A DNA stretch of 64,000 nucleotides from an uncultured Flavobacteriales bacterium (GCA_943842425.1 CALTBR010000002.1:408970-472969); one strand, 5' to 3'; shown: positions 1-38,280, counted from the stretch's first letter. Made by a program: numbers and translations. The notes: generated from the letters alone by a model not told the origin.

Positions 1-1
1 T

Positions 2-21452: not shown

Positions 21453-21468
21453 CTTTTAGCAATAGATT

Positions 21469-23832: not shown

Positions 23833-23835
23833 TTG

Positions 23836-25170
23836 ATGGCATTATTGAAATATTTACCTCAGGAGTTAATTCGCAAGAAACGCGATGGTAAAACACTTAC
23901 AAATTCTGAAATAGAATTTATTGTTAAGGGTATGACTGACATGAGTTTTACCGATTCTCAGCTTGCTGCCTTTGCGATGGCTGTTTATTTAAAAGGTTTA
24001 AACATGGAGGAGAGAGTCAGTTTAACACTGAATATGATGAACTCTGGGGATATTCTTTCTTGGAGTGATCTTGACTTAAACGGTCCAGTAGTTGACAAGC
24101 ACTCTACTGGAGGTGTTGGAGATAAGGTGAGTCTGATGCTTGCTCCTATTGTTGCCGCTTGCGGTGGATATGTCCCTATGATTTCTGGTAGAGGGTTAGG
24201 TCACACAGGTGGAACTTTAGATAAGCTCGAGAGCATTCCAGGTTACAACGCTATACCAGATTACGACCTTTTTAGGCAAACGGTTAAAACTGTGGGGTGC
24301 GCTATCATAGGCCAAACTGCACGATTAGCTCCAGCAGATCAAAGGTTCTACTCGATCAGAGATATTACAGCTACAATAGAATCTGTAGATATGATTACTG
24401 CTTCAATTTTATCTAAAAAATTAGCCTCTGGTTTAGATGCTTTAATCATGGATGTGAAAACCGGAAACGGAGCATTTAGCGCCACTTACGAAATGGCCCA
24501 AGAGGTTGCAAAAAGTATTGCAACTGTAGCTTCTAATGCAGGAGTCCCAACCCGGTGCTTAATCACAGATATGAATCAAGTGCTAGGGACAACTGTAGGC
24601 AATTCAGTTGAGATGCACGAATGCATTGAGTTTCTCACTAATCCATCTAAAGCTGATAAAAGGTTGTTAAAAATCACATTAGACCTTGCAGCGCATATGC
24701 TTGAAATAAGTGGCATTACTTCTGATCTTAAATCTGGATTTGCGAAAGCAGAAAAAGCGCTTGTAGATGGTTCTGCAGCAGAAGTATTCGAAATGATGGT
24801 GAGCACATTGGGAGGTCCCAATGATTTAATCACTTCCCCTCACAAACATCTTGCAGCAACGTCGATTTCAAAACCTATTGTTGCTGAGAAATCCGGAGTT
24901 ATAAACGCTATGGATGTAAGAGAAATAGGCCTTAGTATGGTAGCTATTAAAGCTGGGCGGGTAAAGTCTACCGATTTAATTGACCACTCTGTGGGCCTTA
25001 CAAAATTTGTTCAAATTGGAGATCACATTTCAAAAGGAGAACCAATTGCCATGGCACATGTAAGAAGTAATTCGGATTATGAAATGCTTCAGAAAAGAGT
25101 ATCAAAATCAGTAGTGATTGGTGAAACATCCCTTGAAGCACCTCTTACGTATCAGATTCTAAGCGTTTAA
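23836..25170 (+). CDS. deoA: Thymidine (pyrimidine-nucleoside) phosphorylase
   Basis: Has IRKKRDG, DSQLAAFAMAVYLKG, DKHSTGGVGDKVSL, SGRGLGHTGGTLDKLES and SILSKK. I prefer the ATG at 23836 to the TTG at 23833. Confidence 0.93.
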   Translation: MALLKYLPQELIRKKRDGKTLTNSEIEFIVKGMTDMSFTDSQLAAFAMAVYLKGLNMEERVSLTLNMMNSGDILSWSDLDLNGPVVDKHSTGGVGDKVSLMLAPIVAACGGYVPMISGRGLGHTGGTLDKLESIPGYNAIPDYDLFRQTVKTVGCAIIGQTARLAPADQRFYSIRDITATIESVDMITASILSKKLASGLDALIMDVKTGNGAFSATYEMAQEVAKSIATVASNAGVPTRCLITDMNQVLGTTVGNSVEMHECIEFLTNPSKADKRLLKITLDLAAHMLEISGITSDLKSGFAKAEKALVDGSAAEVFEMMVSTLGGPNDLITSPHKHLAATSISKPIVAEKSGVINAMDVREIGLSMVAIKAGRVKSTDLIDHSVGLTKFVQIGDHISKGEPIAMAHVRSNSDYEMLQKRVSKSVVIGETSLEAPLTYQILSV

Positions 25171-25182
25171 CTAGAATAATTA

Positions 25183-26457
25183 ATGGAGGTAAGAAGACCA
25201 AATCAAAAACAACGTGCCATCATTATTGTTCTTGACTCCTTAGGGATAGGCTCCAGCAAAGATGCAGTTCACTATGGCGATGAAGGGGCTGACACATTAG
25301 GTCATATCGCAGAATTGTGCGCTGCTGGAAAAGCAAATGGCAGTTGCCGATCCCAATCAGGACCGTTACACATTCCCAACTTAGCAAGATTAGGCCTCGC
25401 TGAAGCCGCAAAAGAAAGCAGAGGAAAACCCCTACCACATTCTTGTAAATCAAATGTAATTGATGGCGTATTTGGCTATGCCCAAGAAATCTCATCTGGA
25501 AAGGATACACCATCAGGGCATTGGGAAATATGTGGCTTACCAGTCCTATTCGATTGGGGGGTGTTTCCTAACACGCCCAACTGTTTCCCCAAAAGCCTAC
25601 TTGAAGAAATAATTTCAAAGGCAAACATTCCTGGTTGCCTTGCCAATTGTCACGCTTCCGGAACAAAGGTTCTCGTAGATTTCGGTGAGGAACATATGAA
25701 AACAGGCAAGCCAATATTCTACACATCTTCTGATTCTGTTTTTCAAATTGCAGCTCATGAAAAAACGTTTGGCTTAGAAAAACTATATGACTTGTGTGAA
25801 ATTGTACGGAAAACAATTGACCCCCTGAATATTGGTAGAGTAATCGCAAGACCATTTCTAGGTGATTCCGCCTCAAATTTCTTCCGTACATCGAACCGTC
25901 TCGACCTTACGACCCCACCTCATGAGCCCACATTACTCGATCATGTTTCCGAAGCAGGACTTCCAGTTATATCCATTGGTAAAATTAGCGACATCTTTGC
26001 TGGTAAAGGAATTTCTAAAAGCGTCAAAGCACCAAACAACGATGAAATAATCAACCAAATCTTAGACCAAATGAAGGTTGTTCATGAGGGATTGATTTTC
26101 GCCAATCTTGTAGATTTTGACAGTAAATTTGGACATAGAAGAGATGTTTCTGGTTATGCAAATGCAATAGAAGAGTTTGATAAGAGACTTCCTGAAATTC
26201 TAAAACTCACAGGTGACAATGACTTACTACTTATAACAGCAGACCATGGCTGTGATCCAACTTGGAAGGGGACAGATCATACGAGAGAACATGTACCGGC
26301 ACTTTTCTACTCTAAAAAAGTGTCTTCAAAAAACTTGGGATTTTTAACAACATTTGCTGATATGGGAGCTACAATATCTCATCATCTGAAAACACCGGCT
26401 CTTAAAAAAGGAGTTGTTTGCAACTTGTGGAGAAACAATACGAATATTTATCTTTAA
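25183..26457 (+). CDS. deoB: Phosphopentomutase
   Basis: 424 aa. Has IIIVLDSLGIG, KDTPSGHWE, NLVDFDSKFGHRRD and ITADHGCDPTW. Confidence 0.93.
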   Translation: MEVRRPNQKQRAIIIVLDSLGIGSSKDAVHYGDEGADTLGHIAELCAAGKANGSCRSQSGPLHIPNLARLGLAEAAKESRGKPLPHSCKSNVIDGVFGYAQEISSGKDTPSGHWEICGLPVLFDWGVFPNTPNCFPKSLLEEIISKANIPGCLANCHASGTKVLVDFGEEHMKTGKPIFYTSSDSVFQIAAHEKTFGLEKLYDLCEIVRKTIDPLNIGRVIARPFLGDSASNFFRTSNRLDLTTPPHEPTLLDHVSEAGLPVISIGKISDIFAGKGISKSVKAPNNDEIINQILDQMKVVHEGLIFANLVDFDSKFGHRRDVSGYANAIEEFDKRLPEILKLTGDNDLLLITADHGCDPTWKGTDHTREHVPALFYSKKVSSKNLGFLTTFADMGATISHHLKTPALKKGVVCNLWRNNTNIYL

Positions 26458-26643
26458 ACCCCAACTAAAAAACAGACGATATATACAATCAAATCTGTGA
26501 TTTAAAAGAAGATTTTATCATGACATCAAGTCTAATTATACTGAAAACAAAGTAGTTGAAATTAGCATTTCACATTTTTTCACATCCATGAATAAAACCT
26601 TATATTTACCCCTTCTATTGAACTGCCTGTAATACAACTGCGA

Positions 26644-29600
26644 ATGATTCGGTTTACCACATTTATTTTTGCCATTTTGCTTTTCGCAAGCACTGGTCTT
26701 GCCCAAGTCGGCTCTGGCACATTGAAAGGAAAAATCAGTGATTTCGACACTGGAGAACCTTTACCCTTTGCTAGTGTCGTACTATTTCTCAACGGGAACC
26801 AGGTTGCTGGTACAAACACAAATTTTGATGGTGAATACACCATAAAGCCTATTTCTCCAGGTACCTATGAGGTGCTTTTAAGTTTCGTTGGGTACCAGCC
26901 TAAGAAAATCACAGGAGTCAAAATCAATGCTAACAAAATACATTTTGTCAATGCCGAAATCTCTGCTGGAGTTATGGTACAAGAAGCTGAGGTAGTTGAA
27001 TATGCTGTTCCTCTAATCGATAAAGATGGTGGTGCTTCAGGTGGTACTGTGAGTAGAGAAGATATTGATAAACTACCTGGTCGTTCAGCTACTTCAATAG
27101 CGACAACTGTTGCTGGGGCTAGTACTGCGGGAACTGGTGGTGGTATCTCAATCCGTGGAGCACGAAGTTCTTCTACTTGGATATACATCGATGGAATTAA
27201 AGTGCGCGGATCATCAGCTCTTCCAAAATCTGCCATTGAAGAAGTACAGGTTGTGACAGGAGGAATACCTGCGAATATAGGAGATGCTACCGGTGGTGTT
27301 ATCAATATCTCACTTCGTTCTTCAAGCCGCAATTGGTTTGGTGGCGGAGAGGTTATCACATCAGGGGTTCCAATGGGGGAAACCGCTATTGGTTTAGATA
27401 AATTTGGTTACAACCTCGCTGAGGGAGTTGCTTCTGGTCCAATTCTTTTCCGAAAGGATGAGAACGGTGAAAAGACAGATCCTCTATTGGGTCTATTTTT
27501 AGCTGGTAACATCACATATCAAAAGGATCCACGTCCAACATTCGGCGGAGTTTACAGAATTACAGATGCAGCTCGTGACTCACTTATCGCAAATCCTCTA
27601 AGACAGAACGTGAGCGCTTCAGGAGTAATAAATGGGGCGCTTTATAATGCTGACTTCTTGTCGGGAGATGATTTCACGAAAGTTGACACTCGAATGAATG
27701 TCGGAACAACAAGTGCGAACATTGTAGCTAAATTTGACATTAACACAAATGAAACAACTACATTAACATTTGGAGGAACTGCTTCAGGAGGGCGCAGTAA
27801 CAACTTTAGTTACTCAGGATCTCTAATGAATTGGGACAACAATGCTCTCAGCACTAGCTACGATTGGAGGGCATATGCTAAGTTCAGCCAACGTTTCGTT
27901 AACGAGCAAGGTGAAAACGCAAGCAACCTAAATAATGTTTTCTACCAGATAATGGTTGATTACAGCCAAAGCTATTTTAATTCACAGGATGCAAACCACC
28001 GTGACGACTTCTTTAAATATGGTCACGTAGGAACGTTTAATGTGTACAATAGAAATTCTTACGATTATAATCCAATAACAGGTAGATTCGTTCACAACGG
28101 TTGGGAAGACACTCTCGTAACATTCGAGGCTTCTCAATTCAATCCGGAACTTTCTGCTATAAACAATCAATATTTCTCGCTTTTTGAACAAAAGCCATAT
28201 AACCCATTTGAAGACGGGCCTTACGAAAGTCTTTTAGAAGTGCAAAATGGAAATGCTTTGTTAAATGGTCAAGATCCGGCAGAAACCTATAACTTATATA
28301 GCTATTTAGGCACTCAAAGTGGTTCATACTATACCTCTAACAATACTCAATTCCGTGTAAGCGCTGCTGGTTCTGCTGATATTGGCGACCACGCTCTTCA
28401 GATGGGATTTGAGTACGAGCAACGGAAAGATGCTTTTTTCTCTTTAGCTCCAACAGGACTTTGGACCCTTGGCCGCTTACTTACTAACTCACATATCAAG
28501 GAGTTAAATTTTAATGATTCTACGATCACGAACATAGGAACCGAATACTACGTTACTTATGGAAGGTTGATTGGTGACAATCAATTTCTATTCGACAGAA
28601 ACCTTAGACGCGCTTTAGAACTTAATCCATTTGGCAACGATCTCATCAATATTGACGGAATTGATCCTGACTTCTTCACGCTAGATATGTTTGGAGCGGA
28701 CGACCTACTTAATCAGGGAAGTAACCTCGTAAATTACTCTGGGTATGATCCATACGGGAATAAACTTTCTGGAAGACCTACCATTGAAGACTTCTTTAAT
28801 GATACAAATGAAGAAGGATTCAATACAAGGCCTATCGGAGCCTATGAACCTATATATATCTCAGGATATATTATGGATAAATTCACATTTGATGATATCA
28901 TCTTCAATTTAGGTGTACGTATTGATCGATTTGACGCTAACCAAAAAGTGCTAAAAGATCCCTATGTTATCGCAGATGCATATACTCTGGGTGATGTAGC
29001 AAGTGAATTAATTGCAAGTGAAATAGATGGTGAAGTTATCATTCCTTCAAACATCCAAGATGACTTCATTGTTTATGTTGATGATTTAGAGAACCCTAAT
29101 GCTATTGTTGGTTACCGTGATGGAGATACTTGGTATAATTCAGTAGGAACTGAAATTACTGATCCAGACATTCTCGCTGTAAATGAGCCATATCCTGCAC
29201 CTTGGCTAGTTGAAGGTCCTGAAGCAGAGTTAAATGGAAGCGCTTTTAAAGATTTCGTTCCTGCGGTAAACATTATGCCGCGTATTTCATTCTCATTTAA
29301 CATCTCAGATGAAGCTGTTTTCTTTGCTCATTATGATGTACTAACACAGAGACCTACTTCAAATAACCGTTTTTCACCTATTGATTACTTATTTATTGAA
29401 AGCCGCAATGAGTTGATTTCAAATCCAGATTTAAAGCCGGAAAAGACGATTGATTACGAATTGGGGTTCCAGCAAGTACTTTCAAAGACTTCTAGTCTTA
29501 AAATTTCTGCATACTATAAGGAAATGCGTGATATGATTCAGGTGAGAAATTTCACTGGAGCATATCCACGTCCATATAGAGCATTTGGAAATCTTGACTT

Positions 29601-30333
29601 CGGTACAGTGAAAGGATTCACAATGGGTTATGATATGCGTCGTACTGGTAACGTTAGAATTAATGCTAACTATACGTTGCAATTCGCTGATGGAACTGGA
29701 TCAACCACAGAGACAGCACTCGCCCTCATTAATGCTGGACTTCCAAATCTGAGATCTATAAATCCACTTACTTATGACCAACGTCATAGAATTGTTACCA
29801 ACATAGATTACAGGTATGGTGCTGGTGAAAACTATAACGGTCCAATTGCTTTCATAGGTGGAAAAGAAAGACAGCTATTCTCTGAAATGGGATTCAATCT
29901 AATTGCAAACCTCGGATCTGGAACACCATACACGGCGTCAACAATTGCAACACCAATAACAGGTGAAATAAGCCCCTCAACTGAAGGCTCTATTAACGGT
30001 TCCCGCCTTCCGTGGCAGTTCAATATGGACATGAATATCGATAAGAACTTTACGTTAAACTTTGGAGGAGAAGGAGAAGCTGCAAAATCCGTTAACCTTA
30101 ATGTTTATTTGTGGATAGGTAACATATTGAACTCTCAAAATATCAATTCTGTGTACAGATTTACAGGTGTGAGTAATGACGATGGATATCTTGCTGCTGC
30201 TCAATACCAACCTTTAATTCAGAGCCAAACGAATCCAGACTCTTTTAGAAACTACTACCAGATGTATACAAATAACCCTTTTAACTTAGGTGTTCCGCGT
30301 ACAATTCGTTTAGGTGTGAAATTTGACTTTTAA
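26644..30333 (+). CDS. TonB-dependent-receptor-like outer-membrane protein with an N-terminal carboxypeptidase-regulatory-like domain
   Basis: 1229 aa with a signal peptide. Has a CarboxypepD_reg-like segment (GKISDFDTGEPLPFASVVL...GEYTI..ISPGTYEVLLSFVGY), plug motifs (GGGISIRGARS...YIDGIKV...IEEVQVVTGGIPANIGDATGGVINI), a long barrel, and a terminal ...RLGVKFDF. Confidence 0.85.
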   Translation: MIRFTTFIFAILLFASTGLAQVGSGTLKGKISDFDTGEPLPFASVVLFLNGNQVAGTNTNFDGEYTIKPISPGTYEVLLSFVGYQPKKITGVKINANKIHFVNAEISAGVMVQEAEVVEYAVPLIDKDGGASGGTVSREDIDKLPGRSATSIATTVAGASTAGTGGGISIRGARSSSTWIYIDGIKVRGSSALPKSAIEEVQVVTGGIPANIGDATGGVINISLRSSSRNWFGGGEVITSGVPMGETAIGLDKFGYNLAEGVASGPILFRKDENGEKTDPLLGLFLAGNITYQKDPRPTFGGVYRITDAARDSLIANPLRQNVSASGVINGALYNADFLSGDDFTKVDTRMNVGTTSANIVAKFDINTNETTTLTFGGTASGGRSNNFSYSGSLMNWDNNALSTSYDWRAYAKFSQRFVNEQGENASNLNNVFYQIMVDYSQSYFNSQDANHRDDFFKYGHVGTFNVYNRNSYDYNPITGRFVHNGWEDTLVTFEASQFNPELSAINNQYFSLFEQKPYNPFEDGPYESLLEVQNGNALLNGQDPAETYNLYSYLGTQSGSYYTSNNTQFRVSAAGSADIGDHALQMGFEYEQRKDAFFSLAPTGLWTLGRLLTNSHIKELNFNDSTITNIGTEYYVTYGRLIGDNQFLFDRNLRRALELNPFGNDLINIDGIDPDFFTLDMFGADDLLNQGSNLVNYSGYDPYGNKLSGRPTIEDFFNDTNEEGFNTRPIGAYEPIYISGYIMDKFTFDDIIFNLGVRIDRFDANQKVLKDPYVIADAYTLGDVASELIASEIDGEVIIPSNIQDDFIVYVDDLENPNAIVGYRDGDTWYNSVGTEITDPDILAVNEPYPAPWLVEGPEAELNGSAFKDFVPAVNIMPRISFSFNISDEAVFFAHYDVLTQRPTSNNRFSPIDYLFIESRNELISNPDLKPEKTIDYELGFQQVLSKTSSLKISAYYKEMRDMIQVRNFTGAYPRPYRAFGNLDFGTVKGFTMGYDMRRTGNVRINANYTLQFADGTGSTTETALALINAGLPNLRSINPLTYDQRHRIVTNIDYRYGAGENYNGPIAFIGGKERQLFSEMGFNLIANLGSGTPYTASTIATPITGEISPSTEGSINGSRLPWQFNMDMNIDKNFTLNFGGEGEAAKSVNLNVYLWIGNILNSQNINSVYRFTGVSNDDGYLAAAQYQPLIQSQTNPDSFRNYYQMYTNNPFNLGVPRTIRLGVKFDF

Positions 30334-33300
30334 TGTTGCATAGTAATAAAATTATGAAACGTATTCTTTCCATATTCGCTGTTGTACTAATAGCACAACC
30401 ATTATTTGCATATAAATATGTAGGGAATGGTGGCCCAGGAGCTACAGACAACTCTAACAATAACGGTTCTGTTGTTCAACCACAATTACGTTCAGCTGCT
30501 TGTGCTCCAGCTACCGCGCTCAGAAATATTGAGTGGAACAACGTAAGAGCGCTTATTGAAACCGGTGGATCACTTTGGCAAGATCGAGCAACGTCTTCAG
30601 CTTCTTATGAAGTGCCTAAAGGTGGAGGTGTGAGTTCTTTATACGCTGGAGCTCTTTGGATGGGTGGGATTTCACCAGATCAACAATTAAAATTAGCTGC
30701 CCTTACATTTCGGAACAGAGGTAATGATTACTGGACAGGGCCTTTAACGATAGATGGATCTGCAGAAATTGATGCTTCTACGTGCCAACAATACGATGAT
30801 TTCTTCGTTTCAACTAGATCTGACGCTCAACTTCATAGATCGTACTTTGATGCACTAAAAACTGGAACATCTGATGAAGAATTCCCTGATGGATACTCCA
30901 TTCCTTCCTATTTCTTCGATTATCCAGCTCACGGTAACACAGCGCTTAATCAAGATTTCTATCTTGCTCCTTTCAAGGATTATGATGGGAATGGATTCTA
31001 TGATCCTTCACAAGGTGATTATCCTTGGTATGATTTTGTATCTGAGATAGATTGTGGGAGACGTTTAAGGGAAGATATCGTACCTCTTTATGGAGACCGA
31101 AATTTCTATTGGATATTTAACGATAAAGGAAATGTTCACTCTGAGTCGCAAGGTGAACCTATCGGTATGGAAATTCGCTCTCAAACATTCCAGTTTTCAA
31201 CGAATGACGAGGTGAACAATATGACATTCCATAATTATGTTCTTATTAACCAAGGCACACAGACTTTAGGGGATACATACTTTGGAGTTTGGGTTGATGC
31301 AGATGTGGGAACTGCTACTGACGATTACGTGGGTTGTGATGTACAAAGAGGTCTTGGATACGCTTATAATGGTGACGCTTACGATGAGACTTCATCTAGT
31401 TCTGCTGGTTATCTGGAAAATCCTCCTGCTGTTGGTATCGATTTCTTCGAAGGTCCATATCAGGATGCCGATGAAATTGACAACCCACTAACTACGAACT
31501 TCTCTGACGCTGTTGATTCATTAGGGATTCCTTATGAAGGAATTGGTATAGGATATGGAGATGGAGTGATCGATAATGAAAGATTTGGAATGCGCCGCTT
31601 TGTTTACTACAATAACAGCGGGAGTAATTTAAATGGAGAGCCTTCAACACCTCTTCATTACTACAACTATATGAATGGTATTTGGCTAAATGGCCAAACA
31701 ATGTCACCGGGGGGTGATGGGACAACTCAATCTGACATCCAAGCTCAATATATGTTCCCTGGAGACACGGACCCATATAACTGGGGTACTCAAGGTGTTG
31801 ATATCGACTATTGGTCCGAAGTAGGTGAAGGAAATCCTCCGGCTGACCGTAGGTTTATTCAATCTGCAGGACCGTTTACCCTTGAGCCAGGTGATTACAA
31901 CAATATTACAATGGGTGTTGTTTGGGCTAGAGGAACCAATGGAGATCCAGAACAAAGTGTAAGCTTGATGAGACAGGCTGATGATAAAGCACAAGCCTTA
32001 TTTGACAACTGTTTCGAAATCGTGAGCGGCCCTGACGCGCCTGATGTTGCAATCCAAGAATTGGAGAATGAGTTGATTCTTTACCTTTCTAATGAAAACT
32101 CCCTTTCAAACAACTTCCACGAAGAATATGTACAATTCGATCCAGGTATTCCAAAATTGAATATTGATGGAGAAGAGTACGATAGTCTTACACGATCATA
32201 CACATTCCAAGGATACCAAATCTATCAACTTGCAGACAACACTGTTTCTGCAGCAGATCTTGCCAATGTGGAAATGGCTCGATTAATCTACCAATGTGAT
32301 GTTGCCGATGACATCGATGTAATCTTCAACTACGAAGAGGATGAAATTATCCCTGTTCCTGTTCCAAATTTAATGGTTAACGGAGAAAACGAAGGGATTT
32401 CTCACAGTTTTAGAGTGACTACAGATGTTTTTGCACAAGGTGACAATAAGCTGGTAAACTACCGTACTTACTACTTTATGGCCCTTGCATACGGATATAA
32501 TATGTACGCGCCATACGACTCGGGAGCCGGTACCGGCCAAGACTTACCCTACAAAGCTTCACGTAAAGGAGCGATAGGTTCTATCCGTGTTTACTCAGGC
32601 ACCCCTCACCTCCCTTCACCTGAATCAGGTGGTACGATCCAAAACTCTTCTTACGGAGACGGTGTGATCGTGACTCGTTTAGAGGGTAAGGGAAATGGTG
32701 ATAACATTATCGAGCTTTCTTCAGACAGTGAGACGGCTATATTAGAGAGTCCTAACGGTAGAGTATCTCAGCTGACTTACACAGGCGATGGCTCTCCGGT
32801 AAACATACGAGTTGTAGATCCACTCCGTGTTCCTGATGCCAATTTCGAGTTACAAGTTAATTCTAGTGATTCAGATCTTGAGGATGCTGATGAGTCGTAC
32901 TGGATTTTAACGAACCGTACGCTTTTAGATGCTACGGGAGATTCTACAAAAGCGATCCGCAACTCTACTAAAGCTTTAAACATCCTCAACGAGGAACTGT
33001 TACTTGATTGGGGTTTGAGTATTACTCTTCACCAGTATCAGTATCCCAATGGAGGTTCTTTCTCGGATCCATTAGAGTCTTCTATTACTTTTGACAACCC
33101 ATCTGCTCCTTGGCTGCAAGGTGTTCCTGATAAAGAAGGATTTGACCTTCTAAACTGGATACGTGCTGGAACTCAGGAGGGTGATGATGAATTAGAGGAA
33201 GAGATTGTATTTAACGACATCAAAGCTGGTAATCCGCTTGATGAGGATGAGAAATATGAGGGTGTACTTGGAGGCACATGGGCTCCTTATTGTCTTGTGA

Positions 33301-34529
33301 GTTTCACCGATGATGTTACCCTTGTAACAGGAGAGACTATTCAGATTCCGAATATAGCCCCTACAGTTAAAGGACTTGAGGGTGATCTAAGTCCTTTCTC
33401 AGGCATTAATGGATTGAATAATGTGGATGTCGTGTTGACGAGTGATAAGCTCCTTTGGACGCGTTGTCCTGTACTTGAGATGCAGCCCGTAGAGGCATTG
33501 GCCCAAAAGGCTTACGATGGAGATGATCCCGAAAAGATGCGCTTACGACGCCACCCATCGGTGGATAAGAAAGGCCGCAAACCGAGTGATGTAGGATATA
33601 ATGCTTCGGAGGCTAACCCTAACGGTGCTCAGCCTGTAGGAATGAGTTGGTTCCCGGGATATGCGATCGATGTGGGTACTGGAGAGCGTCTAAACATGGC
33701 CTTCGGAGAGGATTCATGGTTGGGAGCAGATAACGGAAACGATATGATCTTCAACCCTTCTAGCCGTATTTACAGCGGATCGGGAAACCAAGGTGGATTT
33801 ATCCAAAGTGGAGTCTACGCAGGTGGGCAACACTGGATTTACGTCTTTAAAAACTCTCAGTTCGAGGAAGGTTCATCCAACCGTATGCCTACATACGATA
33901 AAGGAAACTATATGTATGAAAATTTAGAGGCAGCACCTTCTACTACTACAGTGAGAAGAGTCTTTAGAGCCTGTACATGGGTTGGGTCTTCTCTTTCTAA
34001 TGACGATTTCCCTATGCTTTCAGTAGAAGATGGTCTCATCCCGAATGATGTGCGCATCAAGCTTCGTGTCTCAAAGTCTTACGAAAAGTACTCTCCACTT
34101 GTGGCTGATGTAGATGAGACTGATCAAGCGGAGAACAACTGGAACCCTCTTTACACCTTCTCAACGAAGTCTGTGGCGACGACTACTACAGACGACAGTA
34201 CGTTAACGAGCATACTGGATTTGATTGGCATTGTTCCGAACCCTTACTACGCTTACAGTAAGTACGAAACTAGCAAGCTCGATAACAGGGTGAAGATTAC
34301 GAATTTACCTGAAGAATGTACGATTCGTATTTACAACCTCAGCGGAACACTCGTGAGACAGTATAACAAAGCAGACCCTCTCACATTCCAGGACTGGGAT
34401 CTGAAAAACAATAAGAACGTGCCTATCGCAGGTGGTGTTTATATAATTCACATAGACGTACCAGATATAGGCCAAAAAGTCCTAAAATGGTTTGGAGTAA
34501 TGCGTCCTGTTGACCTTGATAATTTCTGA
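30333..34529 (+). CDS. Very large secreted protein of unknown function with a T9SS type-A C-terminal sorting domain
   Basis: 1398 aa. Has a signal peptide (MKRILSIFAVVLIAQPLFA) and an alternative start at 30354. The last ~95 aa are IVPNPYY...CTIRIYNLSGTLVRQY...WDLKNNKNVPIAGGVYIIHI...KWFGVMR. The start overlaps the upstream stop (TAATG). Confidence 0.8.
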   Translation: MLHSNKIMKRILSIFAVVLIAQPLFAYKYVGNGGPGATDNSNNNGSVVQPQLRSAACAPATALRNIEWNNVRALIETGGSLWQDRATSSASYEVPKGGGVSSLYAGALWMGGISPDQQLKLAALTFRNRGNDYWTGPLTIDGSAEIDASTCQQYDDFFVSTRSDAQLHRSYFDALKTGTSDEEFPDGYSIPSYFFDYPAHGNTALNQDFYLAPFKDYDGNGFYDPSQGDYPWYDFVSEIDCGRRLREDIVPLYGDRNFYWIFNDKGNVHSESQGEPIGMEIRSQTFQFSTNDEVNNMTFHNYVLINQGTQTLGDTYFGVWVDADVGTATDDYVGCDVQRGLGYAYNGDAYDETSSSSAGYLENPPAVGIDFFEGPYQDADEIDNPLTTNFSDAVDSLGIPYEGIGIGYGDGVIDNERFGMRRFVYYNNSGSNLNGEPSTPLHYYNYMNGIWLNGQTMSPGGDGTTQSDIQAQYMFPGDTDPYNWGTQGVDIDYWSEVGEGNPPADRRFIQSAGPFTLEPGDYNNITMGVVWARGTNGDPEQSVSLMRQADDKAQALFDNCFEIVSGPDAPDVAIQELENELILYLSNENSLSNNFHEEYVQFDPGIPKLNIDGEEYDSLTRSYTFQGYQIYQLADNTVSAADLANVEMARLIYQCDVADDIDVIFNYEEDEIIPVPVPNLMVNGENEGISHSFRVTTDVFAQGDNKLVNYRTYYFMALAYGYNMYAPYDSGAGTGQDLPYKASRKGAIGSIRVYSGTPHLPSPESGGTIQNSSYGDGVIVTRLEGKGNGDNIIELSSDSETAILESPNGRVSQLTYTGDGSPVNIRVVDPLRVPDANFELQVNSSDSDLEDADESYWILTNRTLLDATGDSTKAIRNSTKALNILNEELLLDWGLSITLHQYQYPNGGSFSDPLESSITFDNPSAPWLQGVPDKEGFDLLNWIRAGTQEGDDELEEEIVFNDIKAGNPLDEDEKYEGVLGGTWAPYCLVSFTDDVTLVTGETIQIPNIAPTVKGLEGDLSPFSGINGLNNVDVVLTSDKLLWTRCPVLEMQPVEALAQKAYDGDDPEKMRLRRHPSVDKKGRKPSDVGYNASEANPNGAQPVGMSWFPGYAIDVGTGERLNMAFGEDSWLGADNGNDMIFNPSSRIYSGSGNQGGFIQSGVYAGGQHWIYVFKNSQFEEGSSNRMPTYDKGNYMYENLEAAPSTTTVRRVFRACTWVGSSLSNDDFPMLSVEDGLIPNDVRIKLRVSKSYEKYSPLVADVDETDQAENNWNPLYTFSTKSVATTTTDDSTLTSILDLIGIVPNPYYAYSKYETSKLDNRVKITNLPEECTIRIYNLSGTLVRQYNKADPLTFQDWDLKNNKNVPIAGGVYIIHIDVPDIGQKVLKWFGVMRPVDLDNF

Positions 34530-34530
34530 T

Positions 34531-35568
34531 ATGAAAAAGCAATTAAGTATCATTTTAATAGCCACCCTCGGACTAGGTTCTGTTTGGGCTGGAAACCCTG
34601 ATCGTGCTGGTTCTGCCGGTGCAAGTCAGCTTCTTATTAACCCTTGGGCTGCATCAAACGGTCTTGTAGGAGCTAATATGGCTAGTGTACGAGGGTTAGA
34701 GTCGGTATTTACGAATGTAGCTGGGCTTGCTTTTATCGATAAGAGTGAACTAATAACTTCTAACTCTATCTATTTAAGTGGATCTGGAATTCGCTTAAAC
34801 TCAGTAGGTTTTGCTACAAAAATGGGGTCCTCTGGCGTCCTTGGATTGACTGTAACATCTGTGTCCTTCGGTGACATTCCTATTACAACTGAAGATTTAC
34901 CTGAAGGTGGAATCGGAACATTCTCTCCTAGCTTTTCTAACATAGGAGTCAGTTACTCTAAAGAGTTTTCTAATTCTATTTATGCTGGGTTTACTTTGAG
35001 AGTTATTGGGGAGGCTATTTCTAATGCTAAGGCTGGTGGAATCGCATTCGATGCAGGGATTCGCTATGTAACTGGTGAAAACGACAAGATGAGATTTGGC
35101 ATCTCTCTTAGAAATGTTGGGCCACCAATGAGATATGCGGGGGATGGTCTAACTGTAACCGCTACACCACAAGGGTCAGCTAATGCTCTTACTGTATTAC
35201 AGAGATCTGAGAGATATGAATTACCATCACTGGTTAACATTGGTATTGCTTATGATGTCGTGAAAGAAGAAAATATGGTCGTTGAGCTTAATGGTATGTT
35301 TACCTCTAACTCGTTTACAAAAGATCAGTTTGGATTTGGAGCAGAGACTAGAATTGGAAAGAATTTAGAGATTAGAGCTGGATATCTTTGGGAACAAGGG
35401 GTAGGTTCTGATGAAACAATTACTACAGCTTACACTGGCCCAGCAGGTGGACTTACAATTAAGTTACCTACCGGATCAAGCGGAACGGTATTAGGACTAG
35501 ATTATTCGTACAGGACGACGAATCCTTTCAATGGAACACATTCTATTGGAGTGAAAATTTCAATCTAA
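34531..35568 (+). CDS. PorV/PorQ-like (FadL-type) outer-membrane beta-barrel protein
   Basis: 345 aa with a signal peptide. The N-terminal segment GNPDRAGSAGASQLLINPWAASNGLVGANMA resembles the FL.I.PDAR..G.G-type motif of PorV/PorQ relatives. It shows an alternating beta-strand pattern and starts 1 nt after the upstream stop. The family call is tentative. Confidence 0.5.
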   Translation: MKKQLSIILIATLGLGSVWAGNPDRAGSAGASQLLINPWAASNGLVGANMASVRGLESVFTNVAGLAFIDKSELITSNSIYLSGSGIRLNSVGFATKMGSSGVLGLTVTSVSFGDIPITTEDLPEGGIGTFSPSFSNIGVSYSKEFSNSIYAGFTLRVIGEAISNAKAGGIAFDAGIRYVTGENDKMRFGISLRNVGPPMRYAGDGLTVTATPQGSANALTVLQRSERYELPSLVNIGIAYDVVKEENMVVELNGMFTSNSFTKDQFGFGAETRIGKNLEIRAGYLWEQGVGSDETITTAYTGPAGGLTIKLPTGSSGTVLGLDYSYRTTNPFNGTHSIGVKISI

Positions 35569-35598
35569 GAAAGAGTCCTCTTAAAACTTATATATATT

Positions 35599-35630
35599 GA
35601 GAGGGTCAGCAGTGGCCCTCTCATTTGTTT
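35599..35630 (+). terminator. Rho-independent terminator after the three-gene OM operon
   Basis: GAGAGGG-tcagcagtgg-CCCTCTC forms a 7-bp GC-rich stem and is followed by ATTTGTTTT. Confidence 0.6.
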
Positions 35631-35644
35631 TAGAACAACAGAAG

Positions 35645-36118
35645 ATGGGAGATATATCATACTATACAGAAGAGGGTTATAATTCACTAAAAGAAGAAGT
35701 ACACCAACTCAAATCAGTCGAAAGACCTAAAATCAGCGCACAAATAGGTGAAGCTATAGACAAGGGAGACTTAAGTGAGAATGCTGAATATGATGCTGCT
35801 AAAGACGCACAAGGTCTTTTAGAAGCCAAAATTGCTAAATTAGATAACCTGTTAGCAAATGCCAGGGTAATTGATGATAGTGAAATTGACAATTCGAAGG
35901 TGTTTATATTAAGTAAAGTGACGATACGAAATCAGAACAATGGCAATGAAGTAACCTATACTTTAGTAGCTGAAAATGAAGCTAACCTAGCTGAAAAGAA
36001 AATATACATAGACTCACCCATAGGAAAAGGCTTGCTGGGAAAATCAGTAGGTGATATTGCTATTGTTGAGGTTCCAGCTGGAGCAATTCCATTTGAAATA
36101 CTTAAAATTTCAAGATAA
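35645..36118 (+). CDS. greA: Transcription elongation factor GreA
   Basis: 157 aa counted from MGDISYYTEEGYNSLKEEVHQLK. Has GDLSENAEYDAAKDAQG and a C-terminal SPIGKGLLGKSVGD. The track's N-terminal extension covers the terminator hairpin. Confidence 0.93.
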   Translation: MGDISYYTEEGYNSLKEEVHQLKSVERPKISAQIGEAIDKGDLSENAEYDAAKDAQGLLEAKIAKLDNLLANARVIDDSEIDNSKVFILSKVTIRNQNNGNEVTYTLVAENEANLAEKKIYIDSPIGKGLLGKSVGDIAIVEVPAGAIPFEILKISR

Positions 36119-36120
36119 GT

Positions 36121-36525
36121 TTGGCTAGTATTTTCAGTAAAATCATCCGTGGAGAAATCCCATGTTATAAAATCTCTGAAAACGAAGAATTTTTTGCTTT
36201 TTTAGATATATCTCCACTTGCAAAAGGGCATGTTCTTATCGTCCCTAAAAGAGAAGTCGATAAATATTTCGATTTAAATTCAGAAGAAATTTATGGGATT
36301 AACCTTTTTGCAAAAAGAATATCCCAGGCAATAGAAAACGCGATTCCTTGTAAACGTGTAGGTGTTGCAATTATCGGGTTAGAAGTTCCACATGCTCACA
36401 TTCATTTAATACCTCTAAATTCTGTTGAGGATATTAATTTTGAAAGACAAAAATTAAAACTCTCTCATGAAGAGTTCGAAGGAATTGCAGAAGCAATAAG
36501 AAATGAGCTTAAAAATCTAAAATAG
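36121..36525 (+). CDS. HIT-family (histidine triad) nucleotide hydrolase
   Basis: Has SIFSKIIRGEIPCYKI and the triad HAHIHLIP. It appears to use a TTG start 2 nt after the greA stop, and there is no in-frame ATG near the N-terminus. Confidence 0.88.
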   Translation: MASIFSKIIRGEIPCYKISENEEFFAFLDISPLAKGHVLIVPKREVDKYFDLNSEEIYGINLFAKRISQAIENAIPCKRVGVAIIGLEVPHAHIHLIPLNSVEDINFERQKLKLSHEEFEGIAEAIRNELKNLK

Positions 36526-37825
36526 CGGTCATGATGGTAAGCACACCATCAACTTCTCTAGTCCAAATAGGTCGAACATGTCCGTCTACAGCTGAGATAT
36601 TGTTGTAATCTCCGAAGAATACTTTGCCTTCTGGCAGAAAGGAAGATTCTGATACGAGCTGATTCACAAATAGTTCTCCCCCGTCAAATGAACTTGCGAC
36701 ATAAACGTCTGTTGTTGCATCATCGTGATTACGTCTGTCATAAAAAACAATATGGATACCACCATTTGAAGGGTCAATCGCCATCCAAGTGAAGAACTGC
36801 TGCTTTCCGGGACCATCGTCATTTACTCGAATTGGGTTACACCATGAATCGCCGTTGTTATCAGAATAGCTTAGAAACACATCTAAATCATCTTCACCAT
36901 TTCTCTCATCGGTCCAATTGATGTATATACGACCATAGTGCGGAGAATCTGGAGCCAAGTCTACACCTGTGACTGGCATACCATTTACTCGACCTATAGA
37001 TTTCACTGTTTGATCCCATCCTCCAATCATATCTGTAGCTTTTATATCTTGATCTAACCATGTTTTACCTCCATCATAACTTCTATCGAACATGATAGAC
37101 TCGTTTACAGCCCAAGCAACATATAACTCGTCATTAGGCCCTACTGATGGAACTGCTCCTTCAGTTGTTTCGTCACCATCTAAACAATCTCCTGCTTTTT
37201 CACTAATTCTAACAGGAGTAGACCAATGAATTGCTTTTCGATCTGAGAAACTGCACAGTATGATTGTTGAATCTTCAGGGGAATGGCTATCGTATTTGTC
37301 AAATTGAGTCCAGCAGGCGTGAATCGTTTTACCGTCTGATGTAGCAACCGCCCATTCCTTATCTTGGTCTTTAGGGTGTTCTAGACCAATACTTCCACCA
37401 TCACTCCATGTCTTACCATTGTTTCTAGAGTGTTGGCATACAATCCGATCTAATAACATGTCACTACTCCACCCCTTGCCTTCTGGGTCGCTTAAATGGA
37501 GATAATAAAAATCGCCATTGGGAGAAGAAATAACACAGGGATCTCCGTAAACTCCTAAGCTAGATTTTAATGTCTTTTGCTTCCATGTGTGTCCACCGTC
37601 AGTTGATCTATAAACATTATCTAAGATGCTTCCCGCAATAATAATATTTGGATTTTTTTGACTGATTGCAATGCTCGGCTCACATGGTTGAAACCCCTCT
37701 GTAGTATGCTCTAAACCTATTCTTACATTCTTTGGTACTTGCGCTTCACCATTAGAAAGAGCGAAAACTAAAAAAGTAAACAGATATAAAAATTTAAAGA
37801 ACACTCCTCTTAGACAGTATCTCAT
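36509..37825 (-). CDS. BNR-repeat beta-propeller protein (sialidase superfamily), secreted
   Basis: Signal peptide present. Has four SxDxGxTW-type motifs: STDGGHTW, SRNNGKTW, SYDGGKTW and SDNNGDSW, plus SFDGGELF. Confidence 0.75.
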   Translation of the reverse strand: MRYCLRGVFFKFLYLFTFLVFALSNGEAQVPKNVRIGLEHTTEGFQPCEPSIAISQKNPNIIIAGSILDNVYRSTDGGHTWKQKTLKSSLGVYGDPCVISSPNGDFYYLHLSDPEGKGWSSDMLLDRIVCQHSRNNGKTWSDGGSIGLEHPKDQDKEWAVATSDGKTIHACWTQFDKYDSHSPEDSTIILCSFSDRKAIHWSTPVRISEKAGDCLDGDETTEGAVPSVGPNDELYVAWAVNESIMFDRSYDGGKTWLDQDIKATDMIGGWDQTVKSIGRVNGMPVTGVDLAPDSPHYGRIYINWTDERNGEDDLDVFLSYSDNNGDSWCNPIRVNDDGPGKQQFFTWMAIDPSNGGIHIVFYDRRNHDDATTDVYVASSFDGGELFVNQLVSESSFLPEGKVFFGDYNNISAVDGHVRPIWTREVDGVLTIMTAILDF

Positions 37826-38280
37826 TGCTTGTTACTTTCAATTAAAATGTCAAAATCTGAGATAAGTAATTTGAGTTCTTCTTGGATAGCATTTTGTAAT
37901 TTAAGCAGATCTTCATCTGAAAGTTCTGCCAATTTTTCTTCAGCAGCGTGATCATGAATATGTAACTCCCCCTCTTCATGGTTGCATTCTGTTCCAGGCA
38001 ACTTCACCATTGATTTACTCCAAGTCACATATCTAGAATCTAAAGAAACAAGCTTGATGAAAGAGCTGTCAGTAGTTGGTGTGTTGACAAATTCTCTAGC
38101 AAGTCTCACATGAAATTCTTTGGCTAATCTTCCGCTTTCTTCATGAACTGAGATTGCCATAGATTTTGCATTATTCTCACCTAATGCATCGTTATTAGTT
38201 TTGCTTTCAGAAGAATTTCCGCATGATGAAAAAAAGAAAAACGTAAGAAAGACTGCTAAAACTGAAGTTGAAATTTTCAT
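37822..38280 (-). CDS. Hypothetical lipoprotein
   Basis: 152 aa with lipobox FFFSSCGN and a His-rich patch (CNHEEGELHIHDHAAEE). The stop overlaps the start of the BNR gene (ATGA). Confidence 0.6.
   Translation of the reverse strand: MKISTSVLAVFLTFFFFSSCGNSSESKTNNDALGENNAKSMAISVHEESGRLAKEFHVRLAREFVNTPTTDSSFIKLVSLDSRYVTWSKSMVKLPGTECNHEEGELHIHDHAAEEKLAELSDEDLLKLQNAIQEELKLLISDFDILIESNKQ

What the first reader, a model, noticed from the sequence alone, without database searches (positions are those of the whole stretch)
26644..35630. Self-contained three-gene outer-membrane operon: TBDR-like barrel, 1398-aa T9SS cargo and a PorV/PorQ-like barrel
What the sequence shows:
- A 186-bp AT-rich spacer lies upstream.
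- The TBDR stop overlaps the next start (TAATG at 30331-30335).
- Only 1 nt separates the giant gene's stop (34529) from the next ATG (34531).
- A hairpin plus T-tract sits at 35599-35630.
The three genes therefore look like one translationally coupled unit.
Composition: a CarboxypepD_reg+plug+barrel receptor that is not followed by a SusD-like lipoprotein; a huge signal-peptide protein whose only recognisable part is a type-A T9SS CTD; and a small FadL-type barrel with a PorV/PorQ-like N-terminal motif.
The order of a large CTD protein followed by a PorV-like barrel echoes porU-porV. However, I see no gingipain/C25-like motif, and a TonB-dependent barrel is attached.
I know of no characterised system with this composition.
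Hypothesis: a T9SS-delivered surface protein acts as the substrate-capturing partner of a TonB-dependent transporter (an analogue of SusCD), and a dedicated PorV-family shuttle or anchor serves it.
Basis: partly seen in the sequence, partly recalled or inferred. Interest (0 to 1): 0.72.

Follow-up and report, generated by a model that had tools for sequence, protein, structure and literature searches.

The report
TonB receptor, T9SS giant, PorQ-like anchor

Summary
Three tightly packed genes lie between a conserved promoter-like box and a strong terminator:
- a TBDR, 26644-30333;
- a 1398-aa protein ("GIANT"), 30333/30354-34529;
- a PorV/PorQ-family barrel, 34531-35568.

Family tests:
- The TBDR passes the Pfam thresholds for NTE, Plug and barrel, but is not SusC/RagA.
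- GIANT has no Pfam domain. AlphaFold models are confident (pLDDT 88-90), and its passenger has no real PDB match.
- GIANT's C-terminus is a T9SS CTD. It is closest to those of PorZ and PorU, the two cargos that keep their CTD and sit on PorQ and PorV.
- The barrel passes the PorV/PorQ family model, but none of the PorV, PorQ or PorV2 equivalogs.

Conservation: the order TBDR-GIANT-PorV-like-greA-HIT recurs in about 38 genomes down to 43% identity, including cultured Salibacter halophilus. A terminator follows the barrel gene in 22 of 22 loci checked.

Many genomes hold a second GIANT copy. The N-terminal "heads" fall into two old types. The C-terminal 550 aa plus CTD are 99-100% identical within each genome (concerted evolution), which suggests a shared docking partner.

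No paper describes the trio. The same gene order is drawn, uncharacterised, in the Rhodothermus marinus alginate locus.

Function (a surface partner for TonB-dependent uptake) is inferred, not shown.

The parts
26569..26608 (+). Promoter-like region: direct repeat TTCACA (26569-26574 and 26579-26584) and a Bacteroidota-type -7 box, TATATTTA (26601-26608), 43 nt before the TBDR start
   Evidence: Invariant in six close relatives. The -7-like box (TATATTTA/G or TATTTTAG) lies about 44 nt upstream of the start in most orthologous loci. Promoter function is inferred.
26644..30333 (+). TonB-dependent receptor, 1229 aa: signal peptide, CarboxypepD_reg-like N-terminal extension (aa 26-99), candidate TonB box (AEVVEY, about aa 113-120), Plug (aa 135-219), large barrel ending in ...KFDF
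   Evidence: PF13620 53.9 bits, PF07715 39.1 bits and PF00593 47.4 bits, all above their cut-offs. No SusC/RagA model at E<=0.1. The N-terminal extension matches the SusC N-terminal domain 9hfj_A. 43-87% identical orthologues lie in the same position.
30354..30470 (+). GIANT N-terminus: probable true start (Met8), Sec signal peptide without a lipobox, and a low-complexity linker. An alternative upstream ATG is at 30333.
   Evidence: Orthologue N-termini align from Met8; a 1391-aa database entry exists; sequence.
30471..32870 (+). GIANT 'head' (aa 47-846): a conserved roughly 520-aa N-module plus beta-sandwich domains. It has no known family and comes in two old paralogue types.
   Evidence: AF2 pLDDT 88.5 with a linker at aa 846-849. 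Only weak local Foldseek hits, to beta-sandwich parts of GH15-like, GH94 and GH116 enzymes (E 4e-6, TM <= 0.2). The N-module also occurs alone as a roughly 600-aa T9SS cargo. Heads cluster by paralogue type across genomes.
32880..34217 (+). GIANT 'base' (aa 850 to about 1295): a conserved region with invariant motifs (WFPGYAID..TGERLN.AFGEDS, GGxHWIYVF) and no PDB match
   Evidence: AF2 pLDDT 89.8, pTM 0.80. No Foldseek hit outside the CTD at E<1e-3. 99-100% identical between the two paralogues of one genome.
34218..34529 (+). GIANT C-terminal domain (aa about 1296-1398): a T9SS type-A-like CTD of PorZ/PorU flavour, with a near-invariant tail MRPxDLDNF; stop at 34527-34529
   Evidence: NF052228 PorZ C-terminus E 8e-6; TIGR04183 20.3 bits against a cut-off of 23. 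PorZ-CTD hit in 14 of 16 orthologues. Foldseek: PorZ 5m11 E 1.8e-5 at 25% identity; NucA and RemZ CTDs TMt 0.72 and 0.65; PorU 6za2. Tail conservation.
34531..35568 (+). PorV/PorQ-family outer-membrane barrel, 345 aa, with a signal peptide and the N-terminal motif AGNPDRAGSAGA
   Evidence: NF033709 127 bits against a cut-off of 90; PorQ 57.2, PorV 39.6 and PorV2 29.6 bits, all far below their equivalog cut-offs. The orthologue profile hits F. johnsoniae PorV 6h3i_F at E 1.9e-10 and no other barrel.
35598..35631 (+). Intrinsic-terminator-like hairpin (11 bp, 6 G-C pairs) plus a T-tract, before greA (35645-36118)
   Evidence: An equivalent hairpin with a U-tract is present in the PorV-like-to-greA gap of all 22 orthologous loci examined, with different sequences.

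Best explanation
The three genes form one operon that builds an outer-membrane complex.

Proposed steps:
1. GIANT crosses the inner membrane by Sec.
2. [quoted passage not shown]
3. GIANT keeps that domain, as PorZ and PorU do, and uses it to sit non-covalently on the PorQ-like 14-strand barrel encoded next to it. That barrel serves as GIANT's private anchor.
4. GIANT's conserved C-terminal 'base' is the docking module. Its N-terminal 'head' is the working part.
5. Held beside or over the co-expressed TonB-dependent transporter, the head binds, and perhaps processes, an extracellular substrate. The transporter then imports that substrate using TonB energy.

This would be a SusD-independent counterpart of SusC/SusD.

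Shown: gene order, co-inheritance, family membership of the TBDR and the barrel, the CTD fold, and concerted evolution of base plus CTD.
Inferred: T9SS export, CTD retention, physical contacts, the import function and the substrate.
For: - Operon: conserved promoter-like box, gaps of -11 to 69 nt, and a terminator in 22 of 22 loci.
- Co-inheritance: TBDR-GIANT-PorV-like-greA-HIT recurs in about 38 loci. The three proteins diverge in step, for example 45/43/44% identity to Salibacter halophilus.
- TBDR: it passes the Plug and barrel thresholds, carries a SusC-type N-terminal extension, and has a TonB-box-like EVVEY.
- CTD: closest to PorZ and PorU in sequence (14 of 16 orthologues) and in structure. 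PorZ and PorU are the cargos whose CTD is not cleaved. They are held by PorQ and PorV in 1:1 subcomplexes (PMC5445135; PMC5562754).
- Barrel: a PorV/PorQ family member. It is closest to PorQ, is not any of the named equivalogs, and hits only PorV in the PDB.
- Shared partner: in six genomes with two GIANT copies, base plus CTD are 99-100% identical at the DNA level up to the stop codon. The heads keep two old types. This pattern is expected if both copies must fit one partner.
- Nutrient link:
  - The same order (TonB receptor, T9SS type-A protein, PorV/PorQ protein) sits inside the Rhodothermus marinus alginate utilisation locus (PMC9530828).
  - PorV/PorQ genes also appear in haem- or iron-responsive loci of Porphyromonas and Prevotella.
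  - Distant relatives are flanked by Reg_prop/Y_Y_Y histidine kinases with LytTR regulators.
- T9SS is present in this organism: a CHU_C (type B CTD) protein ends at window 1-646.
Against: - No direct evidence for any protein-protein contact, for secretion, or for CTD retention.
- GIANT's passenger has no informative homologue. 'Binding or processing' rests only on weak local fold hits to the beta-sandwich parts of glycoside hydrolases (TM <= 0.2).
- The window shows no glycoside hydrolase, regulator or riboswitch that would point to a substrate.
- The locus lies among housekeeping genes and is as conserved as greA. That is unusual for a nutrient system and would also fit a structural or biogenesis role.
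- The solo paralogue has no TBDR or barrel of its own.
- In a few genomes the barrel gene follows the other paralogue (L003/L006, L074), so strict cis-coupling is not required.
- Homogenisation of the 3' halves could be neutral gene conversion.
- TIGR04183 is sub-threshold for this protein.
Confidence: 0.5

Rival explanations
1. The trio is a structural or biogenesis module of the cell surface, not an importer. Examples would be a lineage-specific T9SS accessory or attachment complex, or an abundant surface coat. The TBDR-like barrel would then serve as a platform, as the TonB-receptor-like T9SS component PG0534 may do in P. gingivalis.
For: - The three proteins are about as conserved as GreA, and the locus is embedded in core genes next to greA in every lineage.
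- PG0534 is a TonB-dependent-receptor-like barrel required for T9SS function (PMC5445135).
- The GIANT-then-barrel order mirrors porU-porV. The CTD is PorZ/PorU-like.
- No catabolic genes or regulators lie nearby in the window.
Against: - GIANT has neither the C25 domain of PorU nor the propellers of PorZ.
- The TBDR keeps a Plug, a TonB-box-like motif and a SusC-type N-terminal extension, which are features of gated import.
- Two differentiated head types on a common base suggest two specificities.
- The analogous module sits in an alginate utilisation locus.
Confidence: 0.22
2. The genes are co-transcribed but do not form a complex. GIANT is an ordinary T9SS cargo: a secreted or LPS-anchored enzyme or adhesin handled by the general PorV. 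The barrel is simply this clade's divergent PorQ or a general shuttle. The TBDR imports something unrelated.
For: - The current view is that all type A CTDs use the PorV shuttle (PMC12618676).
- Solo GIANT paralogues, and the roughly 600-aa N-module proteins with canonical Por_Secre_tail, lack their own barrel.
- The barrel gene can be separated from the TBDR-GIANT pair by inversion.
Against: - The three genes have stayed adjacent, with gaps of at most 69 nt, from 87% down to 43% identity.
- The barrel fails the PorQ equivalog by a wide margin (57 bits against 220).
- The CTD of full-length GIANT has drifted from the generic type A model toward PorZ/PorU: TIGR04183 hits 2 of 16 orthologues, the PorZ CTD 14 of 16.
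- Base plus CTD are kept identical between paralogues.
Confidence: 0.18
3. The two-copy pattern with identical 3' halves, and part of the synteny, are artefacts of metagenome assembly or binning.
For: - Nearly all loci come from MAGs.
- Several records carry plainly wrong organism labels: Methanobacteriota, Comamonadaceae, Chryseobacterium gleum.
- One assembly has a split TBDR (L001).
Against: - The pattern recurs in six genomes from independent studies, including a closed 2.97-Mb chromosome (OX044365.1, L028). Both copies lie on one contig, either in tandem or 40-47 kb apart.
- The copies are 98.9-99.7% identical, not 100%.
- Identity drops to about 55% exactly at the stop codon.
- The trio is also present in isolate genomes: Salibacter halophilus GCA_008806325.1 and CP073749.1.
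Confidence: 0.04

Closest known systems
PorZ-PorQ and PorU-PorV subcomplexes of the P. gingivalis T9SS attachment complex
   Same: - A T9SS cargo that (by inference here) keeps its CTD and is held at the surface by a PorV/PorQ-family FadL-like barrel.
- The cargo and barrel genes are adjacent, as porU and porV are.
- The CTD here is closest to those of PorZ and PorU, and the barrel scores closest to PorQ.
   Different: - The passenger is unrelated: no C25 sortase domain and no double propeller.
- The barrel fails the PorV, PorQ and PorV2 equivalog models.
- A TonB-dependent receptor is part of the unit.
- There is a second paralogue with another head.
SusC/SusD (RagA/RagB) pairs and utilisomes of Bacteroidota
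   Same: - A TonB-dependent transporter with a CarboxypepD_reg-like N-terminal extension.
- It is co-transcribed with a large extracellular partner encoded immediately downstream.
- The proposed logic is the same: a surface partner feeds the transporter.
   Different: - The TBDR does not match the SusC/RagA model.
- The partner is not a SusD-fold lipoprotein. It is a 150-kDa T9SS cargo with no lipobox.
- A third gene supplies a barrel anchor.
- There are no glycoside hydrolases or a hybrid regulator in the window.
Type B CTD cargos with cognate PorP/SprF-like shuttles encoded next to them (F. johnsoniae; PMC12618676, PMC9143113)
   Same: The principle of a private outer-membrane barrel, genetically linked to its cargo, that determines the cargo's final location.
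   Different: - The CTD here is type-A-like (PorZ/PorU flavour), not type B (CHU_C).
- The barrel belongs to the PorV/PorQ family, not PorP/SprF (TIGR03519 E 0.007, below its cut-off).
- Type A cargos are currently thought to share the general PorV.
tonB-hypA-hypB module of the Rhodothermus marinus alginate utilisation locus (PMC9530828, Fig. 2 legend)
   Same: - The same three annotated products in the same order: TonB-dependent receptor, T9SS type A sorting-domain protein, PorV/PorQ family protein.
- There they are embedded in a proven polysaccharide-degradation locus.
   Different: - Known only from annotation and not characterised.
- The cargo is half the size (about 727 aa), and the receptor is about 935 aa.
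- Homology to GIANT was not tested, because the sequence could not be fetched here.
- It is in a different phylum.

Membership tests
TonB-dependent transporter | Plug domain (PF07715) above the gathering score | tested here: met
   39.1 bits against a cut-off of 23.9, aa 135-219
TonB-dependent transporter | TonB_dep_Rec beta-barrel (PF00593) above the gathering score, with a C-terminal aromatic residue | tested here: met
   47.4 bits against a cut-off of 27, aa 544-1064. The protein ends in ...GVKFDF. No solved TBDT is reached by sequence profile, so the barrel is divergent.
TonB-dependent transporter | TonB box between the N-terminus and the plug | tested here: inconclusive
   AEVVEYAVPLID (consensus VEVVEYKVPLID, with E116 and P123-D126 invariant in 11 orthologues) resembles Bacteroidota TonB boxes. 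This was judged by eye only.
SusC/RagA subfamily | Match to the SusC/RagA family model (TIGR04056) | tested here: not met
   No such hit at E<=0.1 in NCBIfam
SusC/RagA subfamily | SusD/RagB-like lipoprotein encoded immediately downstream | tested here: not met
   The downstream protein has no Pfam family at E<=0.1 and no lipobox; its first Cys is aa 57.
SusC/RagA subfamily | CarboxypepD_reg-like N-terminal extension | tested here: met
   PF13620 53.9 bits and PF13715 49.1 bits. The profile hits the SusC N-terminal domain 9hfj_A at E 1.5e-3.
T9SS type A CTD cargo | CTD model (TIGR04183 / PF18962) above threshold at the extreme C-terminus | tested here: not met
   TIGR04183 scores 20.3 bits against a cut-off of 23, and there is no PF18962 hit. 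Only 2 of 16 orthologues reach E<=1e-3. [quoted passage not shown] Short relatives built on the same N-module carry PF18962.
T9SS type A CTD cargo | CTD beta-sandwich fold as the last roughly 80-100 residues | tested here: met
   AF2 model with pLDDT 89.8. Foldseek hits: PorZ 5m11 E 1.8e-5; the substrate CTDs bound in SprA-PorV complexes, 8glk_D (TMt 0.72) and 8gl8_D (TMt 0.65); PorU 6za2.
T9SS type A CTD cargo | Sec signal peptide, and export that depends on the T9SS | not testable with these tools
   A signal-peptide-like N-terminus (MKRILSIFAVVLIAQPLFA) is visible. Showing export needs experiments.
PorV/PorQ family (NF033709) | Family HMM above the curated cut-off over the full length | tested here: met
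   127 bits against a cut-off of 90, aa 30-344 matched to model positions 3-325 of 326. The profile of 14 orthologues hits PorV 6h3i_F at E 1.9e-10.
PorV (NF033710), PorQ (NF033711) and PorV2 (NF052325) equivalogs | Equivalog score above the cut-off | tested here: not met
   PorV 39.6 bits against 250; PorQ 57.2 against 220; PorV2 29.6 against 325
PorU sortase | Peptidase_C25 / gingipain-like catalytic domain | tested here: not met
   No Pfam hit. NF033707 matches only the CTD, at E 0.081 and 10.5 bits against a cut-off of 420. Foldseek matches PorU only over about 109 C-terminal columns.
PorZ | Two beta-propeller domains; equivalog NF052228 | tested here: not met
   24.5 bits against a cut-off of 260, restricted to model positions 671-744. 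The Foldseek match to 5m11 covers 103 columns only.

The most novel reading that the evidence does not exclude
This is the type example of an unrecognised class of SusD-less TonB-dependent uptake systems, found in Bacteroidota and Rhodothermota.
- The extracellular partner is delivered by the T9SS.
- It is retained through an uncleaved PorZ/PorU-like CTD on a private PorQ-like barrel.
- It is modular: interchangeable 'heads' give different specificities, and they sit on a 'base' that gene conversion keeps identical so that every copy fits the same anchor and transporter.

If true, this would overturn the view that all type A CTD cargos are served by the single general PorV. It would also give a function to a family of more than 2000 sequence clusters that has no Pfam domain.
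Probability: 0.33. Interest if true: 0.82.

Novelty: new variant of a known kind. Interest (0 to 1): 0.7.

Why it matters
TonB-dependent transporters of Bacteroidota are understood mainly through SusC/SusD. T9SS cargo handling is understood through one general shuttle (PorV) for type A signals. This locus joins the two systems in a way that has not been described.

Scale and conservation:
- GIANT's family is very large: 7334 clusters at 50% identity with E<=1e-3, and 2022 with E<=1e-30.
- The family has no Pfam domain and no solved relative.
- It is conserved to about the same degree as GreA in abundant aquatic (marine and freshwater) Flavobacteriales.

If the complex is real, it would give three things:
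- a route by which these streamlined bacteria capture substrates without SusD;
- a second example, after PorZ-PorQ and PorU-PorV, of CTD-mediated non-covalent anchoring;
- a clean natural case of domain-limited concerted evolution.

Cultured carriers exist (Salibacter halophilus and strain SCSIO 12741), so the idea can be tested directly.

Tried and rejected
- GIANT as PorU or PorZ: rejected. There is no C25 domain and no propellers; only the CTD matches.
- GIANT as SusD-like or as any Pfam family: no hit at E<=0.1, also none for six distant family members apart from FlgD_ig-like tails.
- Sequence searches of the PDB with GIANT alone and with a 16-sequence profile: nothing.
- Foldseek of the 1200-aa model:
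  - PDB: only weak local hits to the beta-sandwich parts of dextran dextrinase, GH94 and GH116 (TM <= 0.2).
  - Viral library: only FN3-type noise.
  - Neither is enough to assign a function.
- Barrel as BamG-like: the profile hits only PorV in the PDB at E<=1. I read the two Bacteroidota BAM papers, and neither names anything like this trio.
- Riboswitch or other RNA element that might reveal the substrate: none in 26300-36300 at E<=1.
- Upstream nucleoside-catabolism (deo) cluster as a functional clue: it is linked only in close relatives (7 loci), so it is not part of the unit.
- Y_Y_Y histidine kinase plus LytTR regulator as the trio's regulator: present only next to two distant loci (L084, L085) and absent from the window and from the 79 GTDB loci.
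- TBDR against solved TBDTs by sequence: no barrel hit even at E<=10.
- A second GIANT copy in the window's own genome: none with an identical C-terminal half among the 31 closest non-identical database hits compared (P0009-P0039).
- I could not fetch the Rhodothermus hypA and hypB sequences.

Full report
**1. What is in the sequence**

Three same-strand ORFs fill 26644-35568: 1229 aa, 1398 aa and 345 aa.
- The upstream spacer, 26458-26643, is 186 nt at 29.6% GC. The window average is 40.5%.
- TAATG is at 30331-30335.
- The second ORF stops at 34527-34529. One base later comes the ATG at 34531.
- An 11-bp G+C-rich hairpin at 35598-35623, followed by TTTGTTTT, is the strongest terminator-like site in the surrounding 10 kb.
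- greA follows at 35645.

One correction is needed. Orthologues align from Met8 of the middle ORF (ATG 30354; MKRILSIFAVVLIAQPLFA). One database entry is 1391 aa long. The overlap is therefore probably not the real junction, and the real gap is about 20 nt.

**2. The three proteins**

(a) The TBDR.
- CarboxypepD_reg (53.9 bits), Plug (39.1) and TonB_dep_Rec barrel (47.4) all pass the Pfam thresholds.
- No SusC/RagA model hits.
- The N-terminal extension resembles the SusC N-terminal domain 9hfj_A.
- No solved TBDT is reached by sequence, even at E<=10. The barrel is divergent.

(b) GIANT. Its passenger (everything upstream of the CTD) is unknown.
- No Pfam family at E<=0.1 and no PDB relative by sequence or by profile.
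- With a 68-sequence alignment, AlphaFold2 models aa 47-1246 at pLDDT 88.5 and pTM 0.70. A clear linker lies at aa 846-849.
- Aa 850-1398 model at pLDDT 89.8 and pTM 0.80.
- The passenger finds only weak local Foldseek matches to beta-sandwich parts of glycoside hydrolases and phosphorylases (best E 4e-6, TM <= 0.2). In the viral library it finds only FN3-like noise.

GIANT's last roughly 100 residues are a T9SS CTD.
- TIGR04183 scores 20.3 bits, just under its cut-off of 23. The PorZ C-terminus matches at E 8e-6.
- The PorZ-CTD region is hit in 14 of 16 orthologues. The generic type A model is hit in only 2 of 16.
- The best structural match is PorZ 5m11 (E 1.8e-5, 25% identity). Next come the substrate CTDs seen inside SprA-PorV complexes (TMt 0.72 and 0.65) and then PorU.
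- The family ends in a near-invariant tail, MRPxDLDNF, beyond the last strand.

(c) The barrel.
- It passes the PorV/PorQ family model (127 bits against a cut-off of 90).
- It is far below the PorQ (57 against 220), PorV (40 against 250) and PorV2 (30 against 325) equivalog cut-offs.
- A profile of 14 orthologues hits only F. johnsoniae PorV in the PDB (E 1.9e-10).

**3. Conservation**

- GIANT has more than 4300 close database relatives.
- In the all-against-all library it matches 7334 clusters (50% identity) at E<=1e-3, and 2022 at E<=1e-30. All are unnamed, or named only for the sorting domain.
- The source is an uncultured aquatic Flavobacteriales lineage.
- Across 79 species-level loci and five further contigs, about 38 show TBDR-GIANT-PorV-like, nearly always followed by greA-HIT.
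- The gaps are -11 to 64 nt and 1 to 69 nt.
- The same order holds in:
  - cultured Salibacter halophilus (45/43/44% identity for the three proteins);
  - the closed genome CP073749.1;
  - a 3.2-Mb genome;
  - a Tara contig.
- A -7-like box (TATATTTA/G) lies about 44 nt upstream of the TBDR start in most loci.
- A hairpin with a U-tract follows the barrel gene in 22 of 22 loci, with unrelated sequences.
- The three proteins diverge at about the same rate, only slightly faster than GreA.
- The surroundings are housekeeping genes. The upstream deo cluster is linked only in close relatives.
- A CHU_C (type B CTD) protein at the start of the window shows that the organism uses a T9SS.

**4. Two paralogues and concerted evolution**

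Many genomes have a second GIANT copy. It lies either directly after the barrel gene (L024, L028, L038) or 40-47 kb away, in inverted orientation. In the second case it sits between a UvrD/PD-(D/E)XK helicase gene and RND efflux genes.

In six genomes the pattern along the gene is the same:
- the first roughly 2.3 kb of the two copies are 55-85% identical at the DNA level;
- everything from about aa 800 to the stop codon is 99-100% identical;
- identity falls to about 55% right after the stop.

Heads (aa 60-780) cluster by paralogue type across genomes. Base plus CTD (aa 850-1398) cluster by genome. The boundary matches the AlphaFold linker and the homology break seen in the library search.

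This is domain-limited concerted evolution. The simplest functional reading is that both copies must fit one partner, which would be the single barrel, the TBDR, or both. The heads would then have different jobs.

In MAG NAT165 the downstream flanks are swapped: TBDR-GIANT1-efflux, and helicase-GIANT2-barrel-greA. That is what a crossover inside the identical inverted tract would produce. So the trio can be broken in cis without loss of any gene.

A more distant clade (L088) shows uniform divergence of about 80% between its copies.

The N-module of the head also exists as stand-alone cargos of about 600 aa. These carry a canonical Por_Secre_tail, sometimes with a PKD domain.

**5. Mechanism**

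Established knowledge:
- PorZ and PorU are T9SS cargos whose CTDs are not cleaved (PMC5445135).
- They are held on PorQ and PorV in 1:1 subcomplexes (PMC5562754).
- Type B cargos use private PorP/SprF shuttles encoded next to them. Type A cargos are said to share PorV (PMC12618676).

Here a cargo with a PorZ/PorU-like CTD is encoded next to a PorQ-like barrel that is none of the named orthologues. I therefore infer export by the T9SS and non-covalent retention on this private barrel.

Three things suggest that GIANT is the extracellular partner of a TonB-energised importer, functionally analogous to SusD and its accessory surface proteins:
- the co-transcribed, co-evolving TBDR;
- that TBDR's Plug, its TonB-box-like motif and its SusC-type N-terminal extension;
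- the two-heads-on-one-base design.

Independent hints for a nutrient role:
- The same three products, in the same order, lie inside the Rhodothermus marinus alginate utilisation locus, where they are uncharacterised (PMC9530828).
- PorV/PorQ and sorting-domain genes are drawn beside hmu-like haem loci in Porphyromonas (PMC12106395).
- An iron-induced operon in Prevotella intermedia contains a PorV/PorQ gene (PMC10434189).
- Y_Y_Y sensor kinases flank two distant GIANT loci.

The substrate is unknown. No riboswitch, glycoside hydrolase or regulator is present in the window.

**6. Rivals**

- A structural or biogenesis role, with the TBDR-like barrel as a platform (compare PG0534), fits the housekeeping context and the strong conservation (0.22).
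- Three independent functions that merely share a transcript is possible, but it fits the long-term adjacency and the CTD drift poorly (0.18).
- An assembly artefact is unlikely. The pattern appears in isolate genomes and in a closed chromosome, and the repeats are 98.9-99.7% identical rather than 100% (0.04).

**7. Novelty and verdict**

Each part belongs to, or resembles, a known kind: TBDT, T9SS cargo, PorV/PorQ barrel. The following are not described in the searchable literature (ten searches):
- the combination of the three;
- a private PorQ-like anchor for a type-A-like cargo;
- the passenger fold;
- the head/base concerted evolution.

I class it as a new variant of a known kind and score interest at 0.70. 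Confidence is high for the anatomy and the operon. It is moderate (about 0.5) for the anchored surface partner-plus-importer mechanism.

Noticed in passing
L008/L017, L007/L023, L003/L006, and the two copies each in L024, L028 and L038 (no counterpart seen in the window): Two GIANT paralogues per genome. Their 3' 1.8 kb (aa ~800 to the stop) is 99-100% identical at the DNA level, while the 5' 2.3 kb is 55-85% identical. Heads cluster by type across genomes and bases cluster by genome: domain-limited concerted evolution.
   Followed up: yes
PACT01000037.1 (L003 at 84528-102721, reversed; L006 at 40949-59013): In MAG NAT165 the downstream flanks of the two inverted copies are swapped relative to other genomes (TBDR-GIANT1-efflux, and helicase-GIANT2-PorV-like-greA). 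This is consistent with a roughly 40-kb inversion by crossover inside the identical tract. L074 and L062 show similar swaps.
   Followed up: partly
L069:11254-13179, and proteins P0421-P0522: The N-terminal roughly 520-aa module of GIANT also exists as stand-alone T9SS cargos of about 600 aa with a canonical Por_Secre_tail, some with a PKD domain. They occur in Flavobacteriales, Saprospiraceae and Fluviicola, and all are unannotated.
   Followed up: partly
window 26569-26584: Direct repeat TTCACA-N4-TTCACA about 17 nt upstream of the -7-like box. It is invariant in close relatives and partly kept (TTCACA...TTCGCA) in more distant ones. It could be the -33 region or a regulator site.
   Followed up: partly
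window 19682-26457: A complete nucleoside-catabolism cluster lies directly upstream: purine nucleoside phosphorylase, DeoC, a 787-aa aldehyde dehydrogenase, thymidine phosphorylase and phosphopentomutase. It is linked to the trio only in close relatives.
   Followed up: partly
window 1-646: The 3' end of a gene for a protein with a CHU_C (type B T9SS) C-terminal domain. So the organism has type B cargo as well.
   Followed up: no
L001:6311-10001: In one metagenome assembly, the TBDR gene of the otherwise identical locus is split into products of 342 and 895 aa. This is a frameshift or an assembly error. A second assembly (L002) has the Aldedh gene split instead.
   Followed up: no
L009, L025, L069, L070, L011, L045 (record titles): Contigs carrying this Flavobacteriales locus are deposited under implausible organism names: Methanobacteriota archaeon, Comamonadaceae, Chryseobacterium gleum. 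This is likely mis-binning or mislabelling.
   Followed up: no
L084:198-3783 and L085:2601-7342: Reg_prop/Y_Y_Y sensor histidine kinases with LytTR response regulators flank the trio in Salibacter halophilus, and flank a solo GIANT paralogue in a 5.9-Mb genome. They are absent near the window's locus.
   Followed up: partly
window 36509-38280 (minus strand): A 438-aa protein with only a faint BNR_2 signal and a 152-aa protein with no family lie downstream of greA-HIT. Both are conserved in a subset of the related loci that carry the trio (438-aa protein in 13 loci, 152-aa protein in 5). Function unknown.
   Followed up: no
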